From a virus (lineage: Duplodnaviria > Heunggongvirae > Uroviricota > Caudoviricetes): a stretch of DNA of 10,730 nt. Shown here piece after piece: positions 1-10,730 of this stretch. How positions within the stretch are numbered: the stretch's first letter is position 1; the number at the start of each line of letters is the position of its first letter. The DNA lies in IMG/VR virus record IMGVR_UViG_2703718851_000007, one strand, 5' to 3'. A program made the position numbers and the translations under genes. The notes under the pieces were generated by a model. That model did not search any database, was not told where the DNA came from, and saw only the letters and a list, made by a program, of their open reading frames with translations.

Positions 1-249
1 TTAGTCGTCATTGTCCATTGAGTTAGCTTTAGCGGCTGCAACAGCTTTTGCATCCTGCTCGACGAATTTTCTAGCTGCTTTCCTAAGCTGAGTGATTTTT
101 TCTGGGTCAGTAGATGGGTCTACAATAACTGCACCACGCCCTACGACCTTGATGTTTTTAACACCAGATTTGTTCAAACGATCGGCCATGGCTTGTCCGC
201 CTTTGACCAAATCATTCAGCCCAAACATCTTCATGACTAGTTCTGACAT
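1..249 (-). CDS. Small hypothetical protein (82 aa), Lys/Ala-rich, family not recognised
   Basis: Complete ORF on minus strand: ATG at 249-247, TAA at 3-1. Perfect Shine-Dalgarno AGGAGG (plus-strand CCTCCT 255-260) 5 nt upstream of the ATG. Product MSELVMKMFGLNDLVKGG...KNIKVVGRGAVIVDPS...; no confident family assignment by eye. Confidence 0.55.
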   Translation of the reverse strand: MSELVMKMFGLNDLVKGGQAMADRLNKSGVKNIKVVGRGAVIVDPSTDPEKITQLRKAARKFVEQDAKAVAAAKANSMDNDD

Positions 250-254
250 AAAGA

Positions 255-260
255 CCTCCT
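255..260 (-). promoter_or_regulatory. Ribosome-binding site (AGGAGG) of the 1..249 gene
   Basis: Plus strand CCTCCT at 255-260 = AGGAGG on the minus strand, spacing 5 nt to the ATG at 249. Confidence 0.6.
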
Positions 261-544
261 TTCAGTCCCCCCAATGTATCCTTTTGAGGCATTTATTGCT
301 CCCCGCAGAACGGGGCGCGGGATTTTACCATAATCTACGTACTGGCTCCAAGATTTCCCGCGTGTTCCTAGTACTAGGACAGCTGCCTGAGTACCAAGTT
401 CACCTATAACATATATGCTTGGTTCGAATTTTTGCAAGGTAAAAAGTGCCTTATGTTTAAGTATGTATGATGTGGATATGACGAACATAACCACATCACA
501 AATAACTTTTTATCAGGTTTCAGTGGCTATTTGTTCGGGCAGCA

Positions 545-1198
545 TCAAGCCTGTTTTGTATCATTAGTATTTTTAGCGGTATGTCCGTCATATGCAGCAA
601 GGTAACTGCCATAGTGACGAAATAGCATTTCTGGTCCCTTATGGCCCATCTGGCCTGCAAGCCAGAACAGGTTCGCACCACGGCTGATATGGCTGGTGGC
701 GAATGTATGCCTGGTCTGATATGGGTTACGGTACCGGATACCTGCTTTACGTAAGGTTGGTATCCACGCTTTTTTCCTTATCGCATCGGCGCTGGCCCAC
801 GGTTTGTTTGTCTTTGGATCTTCAAAGACAGTAGCATCCTTCATGAATGTAAATGGCTTCTGATTTATCAGCGCCAACATTGCCTCTTCTGTCAGTTCAA
901 CTTTACGAGTACCGGCTTTTGTCTTTGTTCCTTTGATAACACCGACAACACTTGCGCTCTGGACATGGGCAGTTTTTCCAACAAAGTCGATATCACGCCA
1001 TCGAAGGGCACATAATTCAGAACTACGCAGGCCTGTATGTATAGCGAACCGGAACAGATTTTCCCATTGTTTGTTTCCGGCTGCTGCTAGTAATGCATCA
1101 ACTTCTGCTGGTGATAGCGGATCAACCACGTAGCTGCTTTCTGCTTCTGACTTATCACTTTGGTAGCGCGAAGCAGTTAACCGCAATGCGTCGAATGT
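545..1198 (-). pseudogene. Phage tyrosine integrase, 5'-truncated (catalytic domain only)
   Basis: Minus-strand frame is open only between an in-frame TAA (plus 1199-1201) and the stop at 545; no ATG near the 5' end (first start-like codon is TTG at 1186). Translation carries tyrosine-recombinase catalytic motifs (HTGLRSSEL, RHTFATSH, MGHKGPEMLFRHYGSY) but only about 25 residues precede the catalytic domain, whereas phage integrases are typically 330-400 aa with N-terminal arm/core-binding domains. Confidence 0.7.
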
Positions 1199-1886
1199 TT
1201 ATCAGCTTAACGTTGCGAAGCTTCAGGCAGCGGCATTTTCTCAACTGTCAGATTCTGACCCGTCAAAATCTGACGCATCAAAATCTGACCCGTCAAAATT
1301 TGATGCGTCGAAATCTGGCAAAAAAGCGGGTTTTCACCCGTCAGAATCTGGCGGGGATCCGTCAGTAAAATCAAAACATGATCCGTCAGATAAAAAAACT
1401 TCTCGTCCGGACGCTTCGCAACCGGACACGCAGACGGCTGAACAGGAGTTTTTAACTCGCCATCCTGATGCGGTTGTATTCAGCCCTAAAAAGCGCCAGT
1501 GGGGAACGCAGGATGATTTGACCTGCGCACAGTGGCTCTGGAAAAAAATCATCGCCCTGTACGAGCATGCCGCCGAATGTGACGGCGAGGTGGTTCGTCC
1601 CAAAGAACCGAACTGGACAGCCTGGGCAAACGAAATTCGCCTGATGTGTGTGCAGGATGGTCGTACTCATAAACAAATCTGCGAGATGTACAGCCGCGTC
1701 AGTCGCGATCCGTTCTGGTGCCGTAACGTGCTCAGCCCGTCGAAGCTGCGGGAAAAATGGGATGAGCTTTCCCTGCGCTTATCGCCGTCCGTCAGCACGT
1801 ACACAGAAAAACGCGAAGACCCGTACTTCAAAGCCAGTTACGACAATGTGGACTACAGCCAGATCCCGGCAGGATTCAGGGGGTGA
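1167..1886 (+). pseudogene. Lambdoid replication-initiator (O-like) gene, 3' fragment carrying internal iterons; no start codon
   Basis: Plus frame is open from 1167 (after TAG 1164-1166) to TGA 1884-1886 with no ATG or GTG; the first TTG is at 1518 (the 122-aa ORF in the track). The frame encodes a pentapeptide-repeat linker (SDPSK-SDASK-SDPSK-FDASK) across the 15-bp iterons, then a C-terminal domain (...CAQWLWKKIIALYEHAAECDGEVVRPKEPNWTAWANEIR...). Iterons inside the initiator gene followed by an A+T-rich stretch is the lambda O/ori layout. Family assignment is by architecture, not a recognised sequence match. Confidence 0.45.
1249..1323. repeat. Five tandem 15-bp direct repeats (iteron-like, putative ori)
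   Basis: Units TCAGATTCTGACCCG / TCAAAATCTGACGCA / TCAAAATCTGACCCG / TCAAAATTTGATGCG / TCGAAATCTGGCAAA at 1249, 1264, 1279, 1294, 1309. Degenerate copies follow at 1341-1355 and 1386-1400, with an A+T-rich tract at 1362-1400. Confidence 0.7.
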
Positions 1887-1888
1887 TC

Positions 1889-2377
1889 ATGAGTCTTTTG
1901 AATGACGTTCAGAAATTCATTGAAGCCCATCCGGGGTGTACTTCCGGAGACATTGCGGATGCTTTTGCAGGTTACTCACGGCAGCGCGTTCTGCAGTCAG
2001 CAAGCAAGTTACGTCAGAGTGGTCGTGTGGCTCACCGTTGTGAAGGGGATACACGCAGACATTTCCCGCGCCTGACTGAGAGAGCGCAGGAGGCGGAACC
2101 GCAACCAGTTCGTGAAACCAGACCTGTGCGCAATTTCTATGTCGGCACTAACGATCCCCGGGTGATTTTGTGCCTGACCCGCCAGGCGGAAGAACTGGAG
2201 TCCAGGGGCTTATACCGTCGTGCTGCAACGGTGTGGATGGCGGCATTCCGTGAAAGCCACTCCCAGCAAGAGCGAAACAATTTTCTTGCGCGTCGTGAGC
2301 GGTGTTTACGGAAAAGCAGCAAGCGCGCTGTATCGGGTGAAGAGTGGTATCTGTCAGGGAATTACGTGGGGGCGTAA
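1889..2377 (+). CDS. PerC-family-like transcriptional regulator (phage-encoded)
   Basis: ATG at 1889 preceded by GGGGGTGA; the track ORF begins at GTG 1883. Stop TAA 2375-2377 overlaps the next start (TAATG). C-terminal segment ...TRQAEELESRGLYRRAATVWMAAFRESHSQQERNNFLARRERCL resembles the PerC/Pch motif (KGLWRRAA...W) as recalled; the N-terminal 100 aa are unassigned. Confidence 0.45.
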   Translation: MSLLNDVQKFIEAHPGCTSGDIADAFAGYSRQRVLQSASKLRQSGRVAHRCEGDTRRHFPRLTERAQEAEPQPVRETRPVRNFYVGTNDPRVILCLTRQAEELESRGLYRRAATVWMAAFRESHSQQERNNFLARRERCLRKSSKRAVSGEEWYLSGNYVGA

Positions 2378-2703
2378 TGACGACGTTAACTCAATGCCAG
2401 CAGCAGGTGCTGGATATGCTGATTTCTTACCAGAAAGAACGTGGCTTCCCGCCAACCAATCAGGAGGTGGCTACCATGCTGGGATACCGTTCAGTGAATG
2501 CAGCGGTGGAGCATCTTCGCGCACTGGAGAAAAAAGGCGTCATCACGATAAAGCGTGGCGTGGCCCGGGGGATAAAGCTTCATACCGCGGTGAAGGACGA
2601 CGACAGCGAGGCGGTCGGGATTATCCGCTCACTGCTTGCCGGTGAGGAAAACGCCAGGCTGCGTGCAGCCCACTGGTTACATGAGAGGGGCCTGAAAGTA
2701 TGA
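2377..2703 (+). CDS. LexA-like DNA-binding-domain protein lacking the S24 peptidase domain
   Basis: From ATG 2377: MTTLTQCQQQVLDMLISYQKERGFPPTNQEVATMLGYRSVNAAVEHLRALEKKGVITIKRGVARGIKL... aligns residue-for-residue with the LexA N-terminal winged helix ([68 protein letters not shown]), including the recognition-helix residues (S.NAA.EH). A hinge-like LLAGEEN (compare LexA VAAGEP) is present, but the protein stops about 20 residues later; the Ser/Lys peptidase domain is absent. The track ORF starts at GTG 2344; ATG 2377 is preferred by homology and coupling. Confidence 0.7.
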   Translation: MTTLTQCQQQVLDMLISYQKERGFPPTNQEVATMLGYRSVNAAVEHLRALEKKGVITIKRGVARGIKLHTAVKDDDSEAVGIIRSLLAGEENARLRAAHWLHERGLKV

Positions 2704-3305
2704 AGTTGATCCTTCCTTTCCCGCCCAGCGTGAACACGTACTGGCGACACCCCAACAAAGGGGCATTTGCTGGTAAGAGCCTGATAAGCGCGGCGGGGCG
2801 AAAATTTCAGAGCGCGGCGTGCGCAGCAATAGTTGAGCAGTTACGTCGTCTGCCGAAACCAACGTCGGCACCTGCTTCAGTGGAGATCGTGTTGTTTCCT
2901 CCGGATAAACGCACCTGCGCCAGCGCACCGCTGGATCCGCTGACCCGCGCCGTGGTGATTTCCCTGTTTACCTGGCGGCGGGCGGAGCCTGATGACAATG
3001 CCGACGTCCCGATGGGATGGTGGGGGGATACCTGGCCTGCGGTACAGAATGACCGTTACGGCTCCCGACTGTGGCTGCTTCAGCGCAGCAAACTGACCAA
3101 TCAGCTGGTGCAGACGGTAAGGGGGTATATCCGCGAATGCCTGCAATGGATGATTGATGACGGCGTGGTGTCCCGTATTGATCTGGATATTCGCCGCACC
3201 GGGATTAATGAACTGGGTAACAGTATCACTCTCTGGTGTCGTGACGGACCGGTAATGATTTCTTTTGATGATCTGTGGAGTGCGATAACGCATGGCGGAC
3301 AGTGA
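2700..3305 (+). CDS. Chimeric ORF: RusA-like (Holliday-junction resolvase) N-terminal fragment fused in frame to a GPW/gp25-like baseplate wedge C-terminus
   Basis: N-terminus MKLILPFPPSVNTYWRH...VEIVLFPPDKR parallels RusA (ITLPWPPSNNRYYRH...IRIECHMPDRRRRDLDN), but the catalytic Asp cluster is missing. C-terminal part (...RYGSRLWLLQRSKL...WMIDDGVVSRIDLDI...) resembles gp25/GPW baseplate proteins and sits immediately upstream of baseplate J. Start ATG 2700 overlaps the previous stop (ATGA). Confidence 0.45.
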   Translation: MKLILPFPPSVNTYWRHPNKGAFAGKSLISAAGRKFQSAACAAIVEQLRRLPKPTSAPASVEIVLFPPDKRTCASAPLDPLTRAVVISLFTWRRAEPDDNADVPMGWWGDTWPAVQNDRYGSRLWLLQRSKLTNQLVQTVRGYIRECLQWMIDDGVVSRIDLDIRRTGINELGNSITLWCRDGPVMISFDDLWSAITHGGQ

Positions 3306-4350
3306 ATTTCAGCGCCCGACGCTGGCAGAAAATATCAGTATGCTCCGTAACGATTTATTCGCCAGGCTGGACGTCAGCGACACGCTCCGGCGCATGGATG
3401 AAGACGTGCGGGCAAAGGTGTATGCGGCGGCGCTGCATACGGTTTACGGTTACATCGATTATCTGGCAATGAACATGCTGCCTGACCTGTGCGATGAGTC
3501 CTGGCTGGCGCGACATGCTGCGATGAAACGGTGTCCGCGCAAGGGGGCCACGGCTGCCAGCGGGTATATGCGCTGGGAAGGTGTCAGCGATGGCCTGAAG
3601 GTGACCGCCGGGAGTGTTATTCAGCGCGATGACCTGGTTCAGTACACGGCAACTGCCGATGCAACCAGCTCCGGTGGTGTCCTGCGCGTGCCGATCGCCT
3701 GCTCAAGTGCAGGTGCGGTCGGTAACGCTGACGACGGTACGGCATTAATCCTGGTCACGCCGGTGAATGGTCTGCCGTCTTCCGGTGTGGCTGACACCCT
3801 TACAGGCGGATTTGATACTGAAGAGCTGGAAACGTGGCGCGCCCGCGTCATTGAGCGGTATTACTGGACGCCTCAGGGCGGGGCTGACGGGGACTATGTC
3901 GTCTGGGCTAAAGAAGTGCCCGGCATTACCCGCGCATGGACATACCGTCACTGGATGGGAACGGGAACTGTCGGTGTGATGATTGCCAGCAGTGACCTGA
4001 TTAATCCCATTCCGGAAGAATCAACGGAAACGGCAGCAAGACAACATATCGTGCCACTGGCCCCGGTGGCAGGCTCTGATTTGTATGTATTCAGGCCGGT
4101 GGCACATACGGTGGATTTTCATATCCGCGTGACGCCGGACACACCAGAAATACGAGCCGCCATCACCGCGGAGTTGCGTTCGTTTCTTCTGCGTGATGGT
4201 TATCCGCAGGGAGAACTGAAGGTATCGCGTATCAGTGAGGCGATTTCCGGTGCGAACGGGGAATACAGCCATCAGTTGCTTGCACCGGTGGACAATATCT
4301 CCATTGCGAAAAACGAACTGGCGGTACTGGGGACGATTTCATGGACGTGA
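3292..4350 (+). CDS. Baseplate J-like protein (P2 gpJ / Mu gp47 family)
   Basis: 352-aa ORF. C-terminal motifs (...[33 protein letters not shown]...[24 protein letters not shown]...) parallel P2 gpJ (...ISVTSPSPACVTISVLS...LYLYPGPESEPIRAAAVKKLEAYI...). Gene order W-J-I-fibre is canonical. Start overlaps the upstream ORF by 14 nt. Confidence 0.8.
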
Positions 4351-4925
4351 CAAACGATGATTACATCCGCCTGTTATCGGCACTGTTGCCGCCCGGTCCG
4401 GCGTGGTCAGCCAGCGATCCGGCGATTGCCGGTGCGGCACCGTCATTAACCCGTGTTCATCAGCGTGCGGATGCCCTGATGCGGGAGCTGGATCCGCGCA
4501 CCACCACTGAACTGATAAACCGCTGGGAGCGTCTGTGCGGTCTGCCGGATGAATGTATTCCGGCGGGAACGCAGACCCTTCGCCAGCGTCAGCAACGGCT
4601 GGATGCGAAGGTTAACCTGGCGGGCGGCATCAACGAGGATTTTTATCTTGCACAGCTTGCTGCCCTGGGCAGACCAGATGCCACCATCACGCGATACGAC
4701 AAAAGCACGTTCACCTGCTCATCGGCCTGTACTGACGCGGTGAATGCGCCGGAATGGCGGTATTACTGGCAGGTCAACATGCCAGCCACCACCAACGCCA
4801 CCTGGATGACATGTGGCGATCCCTGTGATTCCGCACTGCGTATCTGGGGTGACACCGTTGTCGAGTGTGTGCTTAACAAACTCTGCCCGTCGCATACCTA
4901 CATAATTTTTAAATATCCGGAGTAA
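4341..4925 (+). CDS. Phage tail protein, YmfQ/DUF2313-like (gpI position)
   Basis: 194-aa ORF whose ATG 4341 overlaps the baseplate J stop (ATGGACGTGA). It occupies the slot between baseplate J and the tail fibre. Resemblance to the e14 YmfQ-type tail protein is from recollection, not an alignment. Confidence 0.5.
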
Positions 4926-4928
4926 TCC

Positions 4929-5507
4929 ATGCATCGTATAGACACGAAAACCGCGCAGAAGGATAAGTTCGGCGCGGGTAAGAACGGTTTTACCCGTGGT
5001 AACCCCCAGACTGGCACACCAGCCACCGATCTGGATGATGACTACTTTGACATGTTGCAGGAAGAACTTTGTAGCGTTGTTGAGGCATCCGGTGCCAGTC
5101 TGGAGAAGGCGCGGCACGACCAGTTGCTTACCGCGCTTCGTGCTCTGCTGTTAAGCCGCAAGAATCCGTTTGGTGATATCAAATCGGACGGCACGGTGAA
5201 AAAGGGTATTAACTTTCGCAGCCTGACCGACAGCATAGATACGTCTTCACCAATGGGACGCTTTTTCTTCCATGTCATGGGCGCACTTGCCGAAATGGAA
5301 AGGGAGCTGATAGTCGAACGTACCAGGGCGGGATTGGCTGCGGCTCGTGAAGAAGGGCGAATAGGTGGGCGTCGATCAAAGCTAACTGATGAACAGTGGG
5401 CGCAGGCAGGAAGGTTGGTTGCAGCAGGTGAATCACGACAGCGTGTGGCATTAATTTACGATGTTGGGATATCGACGCTATATAAAAAATTTCCGGCAAC
5501 CAGGTAA
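4929..5507 (+). pseudogene. Fusion of a tail-fibre N-terminal constant region (about 92 aa) to the C-terminal half of a Pin/Gin/Hin-family DNA invertase
   Basis: ATG 4929 with GGAG RBS. Residues 93-192 ([100 protein letters not shown]) are near-identical to the Pin/Gin C-terminal half including the HTH. The invertase N-terminal catalytic domain (active-site Ser about residue 10) is absent. Residues 1-92 ([47 protein letters not shown]...) look like a phage tail-fibre N-terminus. Confidence 0.75.
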
Positions 5508-5575
5508 ATCATTGAGTTATGCGACGATGATGACTGATGGTGGCTAATGCCATTGATCTCCGTTTAAATAAAAAC

Positions 5576-5595
5576 TACTGTATATAATATCAGTA
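5576..5595. promoter_or_regulatory. LexA operator (SOS box) overlapping the putative umuDC promoter
   Basis: TACTGTATATAATATCAGTA: palindromic CTGT-N8-(T)CAG with an AT-rich spacer, 17 bp upstream of the umuD ATG. Compare the E. coli umuDC box TACTGTATATAAAAACAGTA; the right half TCAG also occurs in the uvrA box. A TATAAT hexamer (5583-5588) lies inside the box. Confidence 0.7.
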
Positions 5596-5611
5596 TTAAT
5601 TGACGGTGATT

Positions 5612-6034
5612 ATGATGCAGTTTTTCACTCCCTCCGGGTTGCGTGCAGTGCAGCCGCTTCCACTCTATGGCGATCTTGTACCCTGTGGTTTCCCAAGCCC
5701 TGCTCAGGACTACGTTGAACAGCGTATCGATCTTAACGAGCTACTGATACAACACCCCAGCGCCACGTACTTCGTTAAGGCATCTGGTGACTCGATGATT
5801 GATGCCGGGATCGGCGAAGGCGATTTACTGGTAGTGGACAGTTCACGCAAGGCAGAGCACGGCGATATCGTTATTGCTGCGGTGGACGGGGAATTTACCG
5901 TTAAGCGCCTACAGTTATGGCCAACTGTCCAGCTTAACCCTGAAAACCGCGCCTGGTCGCCTATCATCATCGGGAGCGAAGAAACGCTCGATGTTTTTGG
6001 TGTGGTGACGTTCATCGTGAAATCGACGGGTTGA
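5612..6034 (+). CDS. umuD: UmuD (SOS mutagenesis protein, S24 peptidase-like, DNA polymerase V subunit)
   Basis: Strong similarity to E. coli UmuD over the whole length: cleavage site LVPC-GFPSP, catalytic Ser (KASGDSM) and Lys (EFTVKRLQL) all present. ATG 5612 chosen (MMQFF...); the track starts at TTG 5600. Stop TGA 6032-6034 sits 2 nt before the umuC ATG. Confidence 0.9.
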
Positions 6035-6036
6035 TC

Positions 6037-7305
6037 ATGTACGCGTTGTGTGATGTGAACTCGTTCTATGCCTCCTGTGAAACTGTATTTCGCCCGGATC
6101 TCAAAGGTAGGCCGGTTGTGGTGCTTTCCAACAATGACGGTTGTGTTATTGCCCGCAGCACAGAGGCAAAGAAACTGGGTATCAAAATGGGTGAGCCGTA
6201 CTTCAGGCAGAAGGACTTTTTCCGGCGCCATGGGGTGGTGTGCTTCAGCAGCAACTATGAGCTGTATGCGGATATGTCTAACCGGGTGATGACCACGCTG
6301 GAAGAAATGTCGCCGCGCTGTGAAATTTACTCGATAGACGAGGCATTTTGTGACCTCACTGGTGTACGTAACTGTCGTGATCTGACTGATTTTGGCCGTG
6401 AAATCCGTGCTACTGTTCTGCAGCGAACGCATCTGACAGTGGGTGTTGGCATTGCCCAGACCAAGACGCTGGCCAAGCTGGCCAACCACGCGGCCAAACA
6501 ATGGCAGCGGCAGACGGGCGGGGTGGTAGACCTGTCCAGTGTCGATCGCCAGCGCAAACTGATGGCCGCGCTGCCGGTTGATGAAGTCTGGGGCATCGGT
6601 CGGCGTATTTCGAAAAAACTGGAGGCGATGGGGATCAAGACCGTACTGCAACTCGCTGATACGGACATCCGTTTTATCCGTAAACATTTTAATGTCGTGC
6701 TGGAGCGAACGGTGCGTGAGTTACGCGGAGAACCCTGCCTGGCACTGGAAGAATTCGCGCCAGTGAAACAGGAAATTATCTGTTCCCGCTCTTTTAGCGG
6801 TCGTATCACGGAGTATGAAGAGATGCGCCAGGCGATCTGCAGCTATGCCTCGCGGGCGGCAGAGAAACTGCGTGGCGAGCACCAGTATTGCCGTTTTATC
6901 TCGGCGTTTGTGAAGACCAGCCCGTTCGCACTGAACGAGCCCTATTATGGCAATAATGCCTCCGTGAAGCTTCTGACGCCTACGCAGGACAGTCGGGATA
7001 TCATCAGTGCAGCCATCCGCTGTCTGGACGCCATATGGCAAGACGGATATCGGTATCAGAAAGCCGGGGTGATGTTGGGTGATTTCTTCAGTCAGGGCGT
7101 GGCCCAGCTCAACTTGTTCGATGATAACGCGCCGCGCCCGGGCAGTGAGAAACTGATGGAAGTGCTGGATCACCTCAATGCCAAAGGCGGGAGGGGGACG
7201 CTGTATTTTGCAGGACAGGGTATCCAGCAGCAGTGGCAGATGAAACGGGAAATGCTTTCTCCACGTTACACCACCCGATTCTCTGATCTACCCGTTGTCA
7301 GGTGA
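6037..7305 (+). CDS. umuC: UmuC (Y-family DNA polymerase V catalytic subunit)
   Basis: [22 protein letters not shown]...[11 protein letters not shown]...[29 protein letters not shown]... is near-colinear with E. coli UmuC (MFALCDVNAFYASCE...), with the catalytic Asp/Glu residues conserved. ATG 6037 preferred over TTG 6031. Confidence 0.92.
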
Positions 7306-7383
7306 TTTTCCGGTGACAGATTCTTCGGAAAACGGTGGATGAGTTTATTAGAAACGATAAATCAAATGTTCTTATTTTTGATT

Positions 7384-7420
7384 ACTAAGTCTCAGTTATA
7401 CAATTCGGCTGAGACTTAGT
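7384..7420. repeat. Perfect 12-bp inverted repeat (hairpin) between convergent umuC and the KAP NTPase gene
   Basis: ACTAAGTCTCAG (7384-7395), 13-nt loop, CTGAGACTTAGT (7409-7420). Lies at the GC-content transition; not followed by a clean U-tract on either strand. Confidence 0.5.
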
Positions 7421-7428
7421 ATGCCAAT

Positions 7429-9177
7429 TTATAGGCAAGAAATTGCGTGTCTTACTGTATTGTTTAAATCATATATCGCGCCATATTTAAAACTTTCTTG
7501 CTTACCTATGAAATAAATGTCAAGTTTTTGATTGAGGTATATAAGGCGCTGCTTTTCATTTGTGGCAAACTGAGATATGTTACTAATTCTATAATTACTT
7601 CTTAAAAAAGCGTTGAATTGCTCTATATCTTTAATGCTCCATTCTTTTAAAATGCACTTGGTCAAAAATGGTGCGCCAAGTACTTCTAGCGTTTTATAGT
7701 TTCCCATGGGATCTAATTTGAGTAATAAGTTAACATCAAATAAAGCCCAACCATCAGTTTCAATAATTTCCTTAATTGTCTTTAAGTTTTTTCTCTTTTC
7801 AATATTATTATGACGGCCTGATAATATTGAAAATATAAGTTTCCCATCATCAAAGCCACTAGTCCAACTACTGATTGGATTGTTGTTATGAAATTCAAAG
7901 TAAGTAATAATGTCCTCGTCACTAAATTCGAGTGATTTAGAACTCATGAACTGCAATGTTAGTAATGATGATTTTGGAAGATATTTATGATAAGTCAAAT
8001 ATTCATAGTTCTGAACCGCCCTAAGCCATTGGTGCAAATCACATGGTATTGTTCTAGAAATTAAACCAATAATCGTGGGGAAAAATTCTTTTTCATCTGT
8101 CTCCTGTAGTTCTGGTCGAGTTGAAACTGCAATATCAATTGTACTTAAAGGTGTTGGCACATAAAAAACATCGTCCAATATATCATAAAGAGAAACATGA
8201 CCACTGTAGTAATTTTTAAGGTGAATATTAATTTTATAATTGTGTAATGTAGACAAAAGTCTCGGTTCATGTGGATTTTCATCGCTGCTGGAATTTTGGG
8301 GTGGGATATGCTGGATGCTGTCAATGATCAGTTCGTCCATGGATTTGTTATGGATAAATAACAAGATAAAATATGACAAAATTGAGCTTAGTATGGTTTT
8401 AGAGGCGATTTTCCACTCTAGTTCAGGGTGGTTTTCTGCGTGTAAATATAATGGAAGTGCAGTATTTAAACACCTCATTAAAATTCTTATGTTAACTATG
8501 TTATGGTATGATATTATTTCTTCGAAAATCATTTTGTCTTCAGTGGGGAAGTACTGTAGTTTTTCTTCAATTATTCTCATATCTAATATGTCGCGAGGGT
8601 TTGGGTTGTAATGAAGTGAATCAGAAATAATTTTTTCTTTATGTTCTAATGACAGGTGGGATTCGGCAGATGTATTAGATATAACAATAAAATCCAAACT
8701 AGAGATTTTTGAGGTTGAATATAACGAATGACAATAAGTTAGTATTTCATTGGCCAGTGAGGGAGTGCTTAATCGCTCAATGTCATCTAATATAAATATG
8801 CCACTGAGTTTGGAGAGTATGTTCTCTCTTACACTTGAACCAATGGAACTGAACACACCATTAAGCACATTGGCACTAGCGGGAGAACCACTGCTTACAC
8901 TACCCAAACCAGAAATAGTATCTAACCCAGACTTAAGAGTGTCTATATCTTGAAGATAGTAGCAGTCAATAATCTTTGCTTTGAAATCTGCAAGAGACTT
9001 AACGCCTAGTAATGAAATATAATAAAACACATTAAGATCATAAAAACGAGGAAATACATTTTTAATAAAAAAAGTTTTACCTGTTCCCCATTTTCCATCA
9101 ATAAAAATAAGTCCATCTCTTTCGGATTGTAGAAGATGAACTATTTTTACAATCAAATTGCTATTAGAGTTTTCCAT
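7429..9177 (-). CDS. KAP-family P-loop NTPase (582 aa), AT-rich, horizontally acquired
   Basis: Walker A FIDGKWGTGKTFF at residues about 25-37. Walker B with the KAP-type Asp-Asp...Arg signature GIFILDDIERL about 90 residues later. An internal hydrophobic segment (TILSSILSYFILLFIH) is consistent with the membrane insertions described for KAP NTPases. Codon usage is dominated by AAT/ATT/TTT/AAA; GC is roughly 30% by eye versus about 50% for the flanking umuC. Confidence 0.65.
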   Translation of the reverse strand: MENSNSNLIVKIVHLLQSERDGLIFIDGKWGTGKTFFIKNVFPRFYDLNVFYYISLLGVKSLADFKAKIIDCYYLQDIDTLKSGLDTISGLGSVSSGSPASANVLNGVFSSIGSSVRENILSKLSGIFILDDIERLSTPSLANEILTYCHSLYSTSKISSLDFIVISNTSAESHLSLEHKEKIISDSLHYNPNPRDILDMRIIEEKLQYFPTEDKMIFEEIISYHNIVNIRILMRCLNTALPLYLHAENHPELEWKIASKTILSSILSYFILLFIHNKSMDELIIDSIQHIPPQNSSSDENPHEPRLLSTLHNYKINIHLKNYYSGHVSLYDILDDVFYVPTPLSTIDIAVSTRPELQETDEKEFFPTIIGLISRTIPCDLHQWLRAVQNYEYLTYHKYLPKSSLLTLQFMSSKSLEFSDEDIITYFEFHNNNPISSWTSGFDDGKLIFSILSGRHNNIEKRKNLKTIKEIIETDGWALFDVNLLLKLDPMGNYKTLEVLGAPFLTKCILKEWSIKDIEQFNAFLRSNYRISNISQFATNEKQRLIYLNQKLDIYFIGKQESFKYGAIYDLNNTVRHAISCL

Positions 9178-9254
9178 TATAATTGTTATCCTAATTTAAA
9201 GAGGTGTAAATAAAGCATGAAATAGTATAATGCTAATTTGAGGTAAAAACATTA

Positions 9255-9890
9255 TTATTCAATTGAAACAATAAGATATTCACCTTGATTTTTCGCATTA
9301 CCCATCGCTCGCGTAACTGCATGCCAGATAAACTTGTCAGCTTGCACGGCACCGTAGTCGGTAATCGCTTCTGCTTCCTTGCCTCGGCGTCTTGGCGCAT
9401 CCCATTCCCGGGCTGCCTCCGGTGACAATACAAGTGGCTGTCGGTCGTGTATATCAACCAAGCCTTCATCGGCCGCAGACGTCACTATTAAAAAACCTTC
9501 GGCCTCGTCACTACGTTCGAAGGGGCGCTGCCGATTGCCGCCATGAATATTGGCTACCCATCAGTTCGGTGAATGAAGTAGGGTTGTTTTTTTGCTATCT
9601 TCGGTCTTGTCGAGTAGGGCACCGAAGTTACCTTCAACGCCCCCTCTAAGAACCGTGCGTGAGAGTTTCCAGCTCACACGGCTCAAGCCTTATCAAACAC
9701 CACTGTGAAATGATGCGGCAGGTGCAGTCAGACGCGTGGTCCGGGATCGGATATAATCTGTCCAATCCGTGTCATATGGATTAAGTGCAGATGCGACGAG
9801 TCTGTGACGGACAATTTTGACGCTCTGAGCGTGAACCAGCCTCAGTATTGTAACTTTCCCCGTATCAGTGTCCCGATAAAGACCTGACAC
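9255..9890 (-). pseudogene. SRAP/YedK-like (DUF159, abasic-site processing protein) pseudogene, 5'-truncated with nonsense and frameshift lesions
   Basis: C-terminal ORF (9255-9485) reads ...AADEGLVDIHDRQPLVLSPEAAREW...GKEAEAI...FIWHAVTRAMGNAKNQGEYL, matching the YedK C-terminus (AADQGLVDIHDRRPLVLSPEAAREW...SWHPVSRAVGNVKNQGAEL). Upstream, a different frame gives KKQPYFIHRTDG-stop-PIFMAAIGS (YedK KKQPFFIYRADGQPIFMAAIGS: a Q codon is replaced by TAG), then a frameshift. Further upstream fragments (HLHL, GKVTIL) sit in two other frames. The N-terminal MCGR catalytic-Cys region is not present. Confidence 0.65.
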
Positions 9891-9896
9891 CCCATT

Positions 9897-10730
9897 TTAC
9901 TGCTGCCACCAAGCATATAGATCTAGACCTTTGGTAATTACACCTAAGAAAATCCCTAAAACTATTAATCCAGTCACTAATGGGTGTTCTTTGAGCCTCA
10001 TCGTTAACCAATATGGATGCCAGCTTCTTGGCCAAAACCATTTATTGTTAGTTTTGAGAGTACGATCATGAATCCGCTCAGCAATATTACAGAGTATGTC
10101 GACCTTTCGTAATGTAGACATTTCTAGCTCTCTATACTTACCTTTGACATATGCCTCGGCTTCCTCAGCGCCGGCTAAGACATCTTTATCAGCGATACCA
10201 TTTTTTTCAACAAGAGCTAACATTCTACCTGCACGGCCACTTTTGGCGGTATGCCCAATATAGCTTCGTCCATATATAGAAACGGCAGCTCTCGCTAAAT
10301 CGAGTTTTCTGTCATCAGTAAGTATAAAGGGCTCGCCACCTAGGACTGAAAATCTATGCTGTAAGGCCTGAAATCCGTAATTGTTATCTCGCATGTTCCA
10401 ATGCAGAAATGTGCATTGTGCGTATCTTTTCAGGAATGTAAAGTAGTTATCTAATAGATGATGCTCAAGGATATCGAGATTTTTTTCATCTGAAACATCA
10501 AGACCTAATAATTCTGCGGATCTATTAAGAGCCCAATGATCTGTTTGCCCACTGCCTAAATTTCTGACAGCAATAGAGGTGATCCTTGTGGATTTACCGC
10601 CCACAGCATCATAAAAAGATTCACATGAATAATGGACAACGTAGCATTGATGCGCATTTGCAAAACATTTTTCGATAAAACCAATGTACTCGCTGCGATC
10701 TCTAATCTGTTGTTTGATGGAAGATGACAT
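9897..10730 (-). CDS. Hypothetical protein (277 aa) with a C-terminal transmembrane helix; function unknown
   Basis: ATG is the last 3 nt of the window (10730-10728), so the true start cannot be confirmed; stop TAA at 9899-9897. C-terminus ...EHPLVTGLIVLGIFLGVITKGLDLYAWWQQ contains a roughly 19-residue hydrophobic helix. GC is lower than the host-like segments (about 40% by eye). No recognisable catalytic motif by eye. Confidence 0.5.
   Translation of the reverse strand: MSSSIKQQIRDRSEYIGFIEKCFANAHQCYVVHYSCESFYDAVGGKSTRITSIAVRNLGSGQTDHWALNRSAELLGLDVSDEKNLDILEHHLLDNYFTFLKRYAQCTFLHWNMRDNNYGFQALQHRFSVLGGEPFILTDDRKLDLARAAVSIYGRSYIGHTAKSGRAGRMLALVEKNGIADKDVLAGAEEAEAYVKGKYRELEMSTLRKVDILCNIAERIHDRTLKTNNKWFWPRSWHPYWLTMRLKEHPLVTGLIVLGIFLGVITKGLDLYAWWQQ

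What the first reader, a model, noticed from the sequence alone, without database searches (positions are those of the whole stretch)
1160..1205. Head-to-head junction of a 5'-truncated integrase and a 5'-truncated replication gene: scar of a deletion that removed the immunity region
The integrase frame (minus) opens at 1198 and the replication frame (plus) opens at 1167, so both genes lack 5' ends and point away from each other. In lambdoid genomes int is leftward and O rightward, with xis, the repressor and early genes between them. A single deletion from inside int to inside O would produce exactly this arrangement, leaving a prophage that can neither excise nor maintain immunity.
Basis: inference. 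Interest (0 to 1): 0.45.

Follow-up and report, generated by a model that had tools for sequence, protein, structure and literature searches.

The report
Deletion scar in a decayed prophage
This is the joint left by a roughly 5-kb deletion that removed the front halves of a phage integrase gene and a phage replication gene, plus the excision and immunity genes between them, in a dead E. coli prophage; it is an ordinary case of prophage decay.

Summary
The window is the interior of an 11.8-kb remnant of an SfV/e14-like lambdoid prophage inserted at ssrA in an E. coli lineage. Compared with an intact prophage at the same site (E. coli CP55_Sichuan, about 39 kb), it consists of four collinear blocks joined by three deletions.

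The junction in question (J1) lies at window 1178-1179, a 2-bp "TA" overlap.
- To its left is the 3' part of a 391-aa tyrosine integrase. Residues 182-391 remain, which is the catalytic domain only.
- To its right is the 3' part of a 313-aa lambda-O-like replication initiator. Residues 79-313 remain, and the winged-helix DNA-binding domain is lost.
- The missing 5,120 bp carried int codons 1-180, xis, the early genes, the S24 CI-type repressor, cro, ymfL, DUF4222 and O codons 1-77.

The same junction is exact in 10 loci from other assemblies, always together with two further deletion joints. It is absent from 5,426 complete E. coli genomes. No other immunity region exists in the element. This is routine prophage decay and of low interest.

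The parts
1..249 (-). 82-aa gene of unknown function that sits beyond the 3' end of int, in the left arm of the prophage
   Evidence: ORF. It matches PHROG 35771 (unknown function, 1.1e-45). The same gene lies next to int in the intact prophages L002 and L004.
545..1179 (-). 3' fragment of a tyrosine integrase gene: residues 182-391 of 391, catalytic domain only, with no start codon, arm-binding domain or core-binding domain
   Evidence: 100% DNA identity over window 1-1179 to E. coli HS13-1 and nine other listed genomes; 16 genomes cover at least 80% of the query, and homology stops at 1179. Protein alignment. Pfam PF00589 only in the fragment, against PF12167 + PF13102 + PF00589 in the full-length protein.
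1178..1179 (.). Deletion junction J1: the 2-bp 'TA' shared by both parental sequences
   Evidence: Three-way projection of the left and right parental sequences onto the window. The left parent matches through 1179 and the right parent matches from 1178. No IS element or longer repeat is present.
1178..1886 (+). 3' fragment of a lambda-O-like replication initiator gene: residues 79-313 of 313, with the N-terminal winged-helix HTH lost
   Evidence: 99.1% DNA identity to L001 from 1178 onward. Protein alignment. PHROG 391 profile positions 78-298 of 298. The full-length protein has Pfam HTH_36 at residues 23-70. Homologues in isolated phages are annotated 'DNA replication protein O'.
1247..1394 (.). 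Iteron array, the presumed phage origin: 15-bp-period dyad repeats GTCAAAATCTGAC inside the O-like gene, retained intact 68 bp from the joint
   Evidence: the repeat finder families D1-D3 and inverted pairs I3, I5 and I6. Assigning it as ori rests on analogy with lambda, where ori lies inside O (established knowledge).
1889..2377 (+). PerC/YfdN-family gene, intact
   Evidence: Pfam PF06069; PHROG 1324. It occupies the same position in L001, L004 and L010.
2377..2703 (+). 108-aa protein with a LexA DNA-binding domain only. It is a nin-region gene, not the immunity repressor.
   Evidence: Pfam PF01726. It occupies the same position, downstream of O, in intact phages that also carry a separate cI.
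2700..3305 (+). In-frame fusion ORF across the second deletion joint J2 (TAA at 2906-2908): rusA 5' part joined to a Mu gp46-like baseplate gene
   Evidence: Blocks B and C; junction projection; Pfam GP46 at residues 81-183; 21,488 bp missing relative to L004.
3292..4925 (+). Baseplate J and Mu gp48/YmfQ-like genes, intact leftovers of the tail module
   Evidence: Pfam PF04865 and PF10076. 97% DNA identity to phage SfV.
4929..5507 (+). In-frame fusion ORF across the third deletion joint J3 (AAA at 5200-5202): tail-fibre N-terminus joined to the C-terminal half of a Pin/Hin-type invertase
   Evidence: Blocks C and D; junction projection; Pfam Resolvase profile positions 91-144 plus HTH_7.
5612..10730 (.). 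Intact cargo at the ssrA-proximal end: UmuD-like (5612-6034 +), UmuC-like (6037-7305 +), KAP-type P-loop NTPase (7429-9177 -), SRAP pseudogene (about 9255-9485 -) and a 277-aa protein of unknown function (9897-10730 -)
   Evidence: 99.95% identity to L004 39380-44910. NCBIfam NF007621 and NF002955. Pfam KAP_NTPase. Annotations.

Best explanation
The site is the joint of an internal deletion in an SfV/e14-like lambdoid prophage integrated at ssrA of E. coli. One breakpoint lay in codon 181 of the leftward integrase gene and the other in codon 78 of the rightward lambda-O-like replication initiator gene. The ends were joined by illegitimate recombination at a 2-bp TA overlap.

About 5.1 kb was lost. 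It carried the int arm-binding and core-binding domains, xis, the early-left genes, the CI-type S24 repressor, cro, PR/PL, ymfL, DUF4222 and the DNA-binding domain of O.

Inferred consequences:
- Both fragments are promoterless pseudogenes without start codons.
- The element cannot excise, because it lacks a functional Int and has no Xis.
- It cannot initiate replication, although its iteron origin is intact.
- It has no immunity switch.

Two more deletions removed the lysis, head and most tail genes (rusA to gp46, 21.5 kb) and the invertible tail-fibre segment (tail fibre to invertase, about 1.4 kb). What remains is an 11.8-kb immobile remnant. It keeps its cargo (UmuDC-like polymerase, KAP NTPase) and is inherited vertically.
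For: - Collinear four-block mapping of the window onto the intact ssrA prophage of CP55_Sichuan, with identical ends (blocks A and D at 99.5% and 99.95%).
- Homology to int-bearing genomes stops at 1179, and homology to O-bearing prophages starts at 1178.
- The fragments align to residues 182-391 of 391 and 79-313 of 313 in full-length proteins.
- The domain content is lost as predicted.
- The deleted interval in L004 holds xis (PHROG 2917), an S24+HTH repressor and P22_Cro.
- An isolated phage has the same gene order.
- The junction is exact in 10 loci fetched from other assemblies, next to ssrA and smpB.
- att repeats bound an 11.8-kb element with no other int, xis or cI.
- All three joints have 2-3 bp overlaps. 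Their sum of 8 bp has P of about 0.006-0.018 under random joining.
Against: - No sequenced genome is the exact ancestor. Block B is 97.5% identical to the ssrA prophage of CP55 but 99.1% identical to a prophage at thrW in another strain. The deleted length (5.1 kb) and content are therefore estimates from mosaic relatives.
- A single event cannot be told apart from nested successive deletions, and no intermediate forms were found.
- Loss of excision, replication and immunity is inferred from gene content and was not measured.
- For J1 alone, the 2-bp overlap is within chance (P = 0.16).
Confidence: 0.9

Rival explanations
1. The joint is the net product of two or more successive, nested deletions or rearrangements, not one event. 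For example, the immunity region may have been lost first and the deletion later extended into int and O.
For: The same element has two further independent deletion joints, so deletion recurred here. Other E. coli strains carry different remnants of the same prophage; SZQ1, for example, joins yfdR' to the tail fibre.
Against: Only one joint is visible between int' and O'. No intermediate genomes were found among 5,426 complete E. coli genomes or among the contigs that carry J2 or J3. One event is the more parsimonious reading.
Confidence: 0.15
2. The joint arose by illegitimate recombination between two different co-resident prophages: the int end from the ssrA prophage and the O block from another prophage, for example one at thrW. 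It would then not be a deletion within one prophage.
For: Block B (1178-2908) is closer to a thrW prophage (99.1%, L001) than to the ssrA prophage of CP55 (97.5%), while blocks A and D are 99.5-100% identical to ssrA prophages.
Against: Blocks A to D keep the order and orientation of a single prophage, and both chromosomal flanks are the normal ssrA-side neighbours. An exchange between ssrA and thrW would rearrange megabases of chromosome. Modular mosaicism among lambdoid phages explains the identity differences; HS13-1, for instance, has the same int with a different O module.
Confidence: 0.04
3. The two short genes are natural and functional: a catalytic-domain-only recombinase and an N-terminally short replication protein. 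Alternatively, the joint is an assembly chimera.
For: Gene callers do call a 194-aa integrase-domain ORF and a 122-aa ORF here.
Against: The O frame has no start codon for 117 codons. Homologues in intact prophages and in isolated phages are 391 and 313 aa, with N-terminal DNA-binding domains. DNA homology to each parent ends abruptly at 1178-1179. The joint is identical in 10 loci fetched from other assemblies, which excludes a chimera.
Confidence: 0.01

Closest known systems
Cryptic (defective) prophages of E. coli K-12, especially e14 and CPS-53/KpLE1, whose O-family replication genes are recorded as pseudogenes (that annotation is from my own knowledge, not tested here)
   Same: Same phage family. 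The E. coli RefSeq annotation uses the K-12 gene names yfdN, yfdR, yfdT, ymfL, ymfK, ymfT and ymfQ for homologues of the window's genes and of its intact relatives. These are remnants made by internal deletions that keep tail-fibre or invertase pieces and cargo genes. Cryptic prophages as a class are described in PMC3105296.
   Different: A different attachment site (ssrA rather than icd or argW), different cargo (UmuDC-like, KAP NTPase) and different breakpoints. Here int itself is truncated and fused head-to-head with O'.
Shigella flexneri phages SfV, SfI, SfII and SfIV: lambdoid early region with a Mu-like contractile tail
   Same: The tail and baseplate block 2902-5202 is 96.5-97.1% identical in DNA to these phages. 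[quoted passage not shown]
   Different: Those are complete, inducible phages of 37-41 kb integrated at thrW with O-antigen modification genes. The window is an 11.8-kb remnant at ssrA with none of the serotype-conversion genes.
Bacteriophage lambda int-xis ... cI-cro ... O (with ori inside O)
   Same: Divergent int and O with the excision and immunity genes between them, and an iteron array inside the replication initiator gene.
   Different: No detectable DNA homology to lambda was tested or claimed. The O-like protein belongs to PHROG 391 with an HTH_36-type N-terminus, and no lambda-P-like gene follows it; a PerC/YfdN-family gene does instead.
Intact ssrA prophage of E. coli CP55_Sichuan (NZ_CP053731.1, 4.110-4.150 Mb)
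   Same: Same insertion site, same integrase (99.5% DNA identity over block A, window 1-1179), same right-end cargo (99.95%) and the same gene order.
   Different: It retains the 28 kb that the window lacks. Its replication and baseplate modules are only 97.5% and 96.7% identical, so it is a cousin and not the parent.

Membership tests
Tyrosine recombinase / phage integrase (lambda Int type) | C-terminal catalytic domain (Pfam PF00589) | tested here: met
   Fragment residues 28-196 match PF00589 profile positions 3-165 of 172, E = 3.2e-16.
Tyrosine recombinase / phage integrase (lambda Int type) | N-terminal arm-binding and core-binding domains, and a start codon (a complete gene) | tested here: not met
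   Full-length relatives have PF12167 (residues 10-77) and PF13102 (residues 94-178). The window retains only residues 182-391. It is a gene fragment, not a functional family member.
Lambda-O-like replication initiator (PHROG 391) | Sequence match over the family profile | tested here: met
   The fragment matches profile positions 78-298 of 298, E = 2.1e-95. The full-length L004 protein matches positions 1-298, E = 1.2e-135.
Lambda-O-like replication initiator (PHROG 391) | N-terminal winged-helix DNA-binding domain | tested here: not met
   HTH_36 lies at residues 23-70 of full-length proteins. Residues 1-78 are absent from the window.
Lambda-O-like replication initiator (PHROG 391) | Origin iterons inside the coding sequence | tested here: met
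   At least five 15-bp-period dyad repeats at 1247-1322, with further copies out to 1394. Binding by the protein was not tested.
Lambdoid prophage (int / xis / cI / cro / O order) | Divergent int and O separated by the excision and immunity genes in intact relatives | tested here: met
   L004, L002 and phage PhiR29_2. Domains were checked.
Lambdoid prophage (int / xis / cI / cro / O order) | An immunity region (repressor and cro) present in this element | tested here: not met
   None lies between the att repeats of L005. The 108-aa LexA-DBD gene is a nin-region gene that is also present in phages with their own cI.
Deletion by microhomology-mediated illegitimate recombination | A short overlap at the joint, with no IS element, no long repeat and no att-like site | tested here: inconclusive
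   2 bp (TA) at J1, P = 0.16 alone. The three joints sum to 8 bp, P = 0.006-0.018. The mechanism itself cannot be observed.

The most novel reading that the evidence does not exclude
The remnant may not be mere debris. It keeps an intact iteron origin next to a truncated O that has only the C-terminal (partner-binding) part. It could therefore act as a decoy that titrates the initiator or host replication factors of superinfecting phages of the same replication specificity. That would be a domesticated exclusion function, and it would explain why the O'-PerC-LexA-like block survived three deletions.
Probability: 0.03. Interest if true: 0.45.

Novelty: new member of a known kind. Interest (0 to 1): 0.1.

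Why it matters
It matters little beyond annotation. The result shows that the two ORFs here should be annotated as pseudogene fragments of int and an O-like gene. It also shows that the island at ssrA in this E. coli lineage is an immobilised prophage remnant. The three exact junction sequences (J1 to J3) are clean lineage markers. The element is a tidy worked example of how a 39-kb lambdoid prophage shrinks to an 11.8-kb cargo island, keeping a UmuDC-like polymerase and a KAP NTPase, through a few short-overlap deletions.

Tried and rejected
- **Junction searches outside E. coli complete genomes.** An exact 30-mer spanning J1 found nothing in GTDB species-representative genomes or in JGI metagenome contigs. 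The joint was recovered only through protein look-ups in the large assembly collection.
- **E. coli complete genomes.** None of the 5,426 carries the J1 arrangement.
- **Intermediate forms.** I looked for genomes with J2 or J3 but not J1, using the J3 fusion protein. Every contig long enough has all three joints, and the shorter contigs simply end before J1. The order of the deletions remains unknown.
- **Pfam on the O-like fragment.** This gave nothing. PHROGs and the full-length homologue were needed.
- **Promoter and terminator scan around the joint.** No enrichment: 1 promoter-like site against 2.0 expected. It says nothing about expression.
- **The 108-aa LexA-DBD protein or the UmuD-like S24 protein as a relocated immunity repressor.** Rejected, because both occupy the same positions in intact phages that have their own cI.
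- **Assembly chimera and naturally short genes.** Rejected.

Full report
**Observation**

- On the minus strand, a frame is open from 1198 to the stop at 545.
- On the plus strand, a frame is open from 1167 to 1886, but its first possible start codon is a TTG at 1518.
- The minus-strand product matches only the catalytic domain of tyrosine integrases (Pfam PF00589, E = 3e-16).
- The plus-strand product has no Pfam match. It matches PHROG 391, 'replication initiation O-like', at profile positions 78-298 of 298 (E = 2e-95).

**Where the DNA really breaks**

Megablast against 5,426 complete E. coli genomes splits the region cleanly.
- Window 1-1179 is 100% identical to a stretch in 10 of the listed genomes (16 genomes cover at least 80% of the query). 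That stretch continues into a full-length 391-aa 'site-specific integrase'.
- Window 1178-2908/2911 is 98-99% identical to prophages in which it is preceded by the 5' end of a 313-aa helix-turn-helix protein.
- No complete genome holds the two parts joined.

Projecting both parental sequences onto the window places the joint precisely. The integrase parent matches through 1179 and the replication parent matches from 1178. The joint is therefore a 2-bp 'TA' overlap at 1178-1179.

**What was lost**

E. coli CP55_Sichuan carries an apparently complete prophage of about 39 kb at the same chromosomal site, next to ssrA and smpB (L004). The window is four collinear blocks of it:

| Block | Window | L004 | Identity |
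|---|---|---|---|
| A | 1-1179 | 6168-7346 | 99.5% |
| B | 1178-2908 | 12465-14195 | 97.5% |
| C | 2902-5202 | 35678-37977 | 96.7% |
| D | 5200-10730 | 39380-44910 | 99.95% |

The gap between A and B is 5,120 bp. In L004 it holds the following:
- int codons 1-180, carrying the arm-binding domain PF12167 and the SAM-like core-binding domain PF13102
- a 68-aa excisionase (PHROG 2917)
- several early genes, including yfdR
- a 208-aa HTH_3 + Peptidase_S24 repressor
- a P22_Cro-type cro
- ymfL and DUF4222
- codons 1-77 of the O-like gene, including its HTH_36 winged helix at residues 23-70

Protein alignments confirm that the window keeps integrase residues 182-391 of 391 and O-like residues 79-313 of 313. 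The isolated phage PhiR29_2 has the same order, and its depositors annotated integrase, cI, Cro and 'DNA replication protein O' (942 nt).

**The rest of the element**

The remnant is bounded in a longer contig (L005; window = L005 7302-18031, 99.8% identity). A 153-bp direct repeat that includes the 3' end of ssrA marks both ends (6252-6404 and 18085-18238), giving an 11.8-kb element. The right flank is 99.9% identical to E. coli.

Between the repeats there is no other integrase, excisionase, repressor or cro. The 108-aa LexA-DNA-binding-domain gene at 2377-2703 sits at the same place in intact phages that have their own cI, so it is not a relocated immunity gene.

There are two more deletion joints.
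- **J2**, at 2906-2908 (TAA), fuses rusA in frame to a Mu-gp46-like baseplate gene. Relative to L004, 21,488 bp are lost: late control, lysis, head and most tail genes.
- **J3**, at 5200-5202 (AAA), fuses a tail-fibre N-terminus in frame to the C-terminal half of a Pin/Hin-type invertase. About 1.4 kb is lost.

The tail block is 97% identical to Shigella phage SfV and its relatives. This places the ancestor in the SfV/e14 group of lambdoid myoviruses described in PMC3636060.

**Mechanism**

No IS element, long repeat or att-like site lies at J1. A 2-bp overlap alone is within chance (P = 0.16). The three joints together carry 8 bp of overlap, with P of about 0.006-0.018 under random blunt joining. 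This fits short-homology illegitimate recombination, which I infer and did not observe.

The consequences are also inferred.
- Int' and O' lack start codons and their native promoters (PL/PI and PR lay in the deleted DNA).
- There is no Xis.
- The iteron array at 1247-1394 survives as an orphan origin, 68 bp from the joint.
- The element should therefore be unable to excise, replicate or set up immunity.
- With the lysis and head genes gone, loss of immunity carries no cost.

This matches the general picture of cryptic prophages (PMC3105296) and the reported preferential loss of replication, packaging and release genes (PMC7744054).

**Inheritance**

All three joints are exact in ten loci fetched from other assemblies (NCBI and Logan). 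These differ from the window by 16-21 substitutions where they were compared with it (L005-L009). Contigs that lack J1 simply end before it. The scar is therefore real and is shared by a set of strains. The order of the three deletions cannot be resolved. Exact searches for J1 in GTDB representative genomes and in JGI metagenomes found nothing.

**Rival explanations**

- **Nested successive deletions** cannot be excluded, but no intermediate supports them.
- **Origin by exchange between two prophages** is suggested only by block B being closer to a thrW prophage (99.1%) than to the CP55 ssrA prophage (97.5%). The preserved order, orientation and chromosomal flanks, together with the known modular mosaicism of these phages, make it unlikely. 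HS13-1, for example, has the same int with a different O module.
- **Naturally short genes or an assembly chimera** are contradicted.

**Verdict**

The feature is a routine deletion scar in a decayed prophage. It is a new instance of a well-known kind, of low interest except as a lineage marker and an annotation fix.

Noticed in passing
window 2700-3305 (joint at 2906-2908): A second deletion joint. The 5' part of rusA (about 69 codons) is fused in frame to codon 9 of a Mu-gp46-like baseplate gene, giving a 201-aa chimeric ORF. Relative to the intact relative, 21.5 kb is missing (late control, lysis, head and tail genes). The overlap is 3 bp (TAA).
   Followed up: yes
window 4929-5507 (joint at 5200-5202): A third deletion joint. 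A tail-fibre N-terminus is fused in frame to the C-terminal half of a Pin/Hin-type serine invertase (Resolvase profile positions 91-144 plus HTH_7). The invertible tail-fibre segment and the invertase's N-terminal half, which normally carries the catalytic serine (the residue itself was not checked here), are gone. The overlap is 3 bp (AAA).
   Followed up: yes
window 1247-1394: An iteron array of 15-bp period. Each unit is a small dyad (GTCAAAATCTGAC), and the array lies inside the O-like reading frame, where it encodes a repetitive SDPSKSDASK linker. It looks like an intact but orphaned phage origin.
   Followed up: partly
window 5612-7305: An intact UmuD-like and UmuC-like gene pair (NCBIfam PRK10276 at 162 bits and PRK03609 at 871 bits). 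It is carried as prophage cargo next to the invertase and is 99.95% conserved with the intact prophage. It would be a second, phage-borne Pol V-type operon.
   Followed up: partly
window 7429-9177 (-): A 582-aa, visibly A+T-rich KAP-family P-loop NTPase. It weakly resembles the PADLOC candidate defence system PDC-S49 (E = 8e-14 over residues 24-314) and has no NCBIfam match. It may be an anti-phage cargo gene.
   Followed up: partly
window 9255-9485 (-) and 9897-10730 (-): An SOS-response-associated peptidase (SRAP) pseudogene, and an intact 277-aa protein with no family match in the PADLOC and NCBIfam scans run here. Both lie between the NTPase and ssrA.
   Followed up: no
L005 6252-6404 and 18085-18238: An unusually long (153 bp, 97% identical) direct repeat bounds the element. 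It comprises the last 35 nt of ssrA plus 119 nt downstream. The integrase lies at the end far from the intact ssrA, with two genes of unknown function (272 aa and 82 aa) between it and the distal repeat.
   Followed up: partly
L003 (E. coli SZQ1, NZ_CP173996.1 1.1437-1.1540 Mb): An independent, differently deleted remnant of the same ssrA prophage. It has a full-length int and xis, then yfdR' joined directly to a tail-fibre gene, and it keeps the invertible segment and the same cargo. Decay of this prophage has happened more than once.
   Followed up: partly
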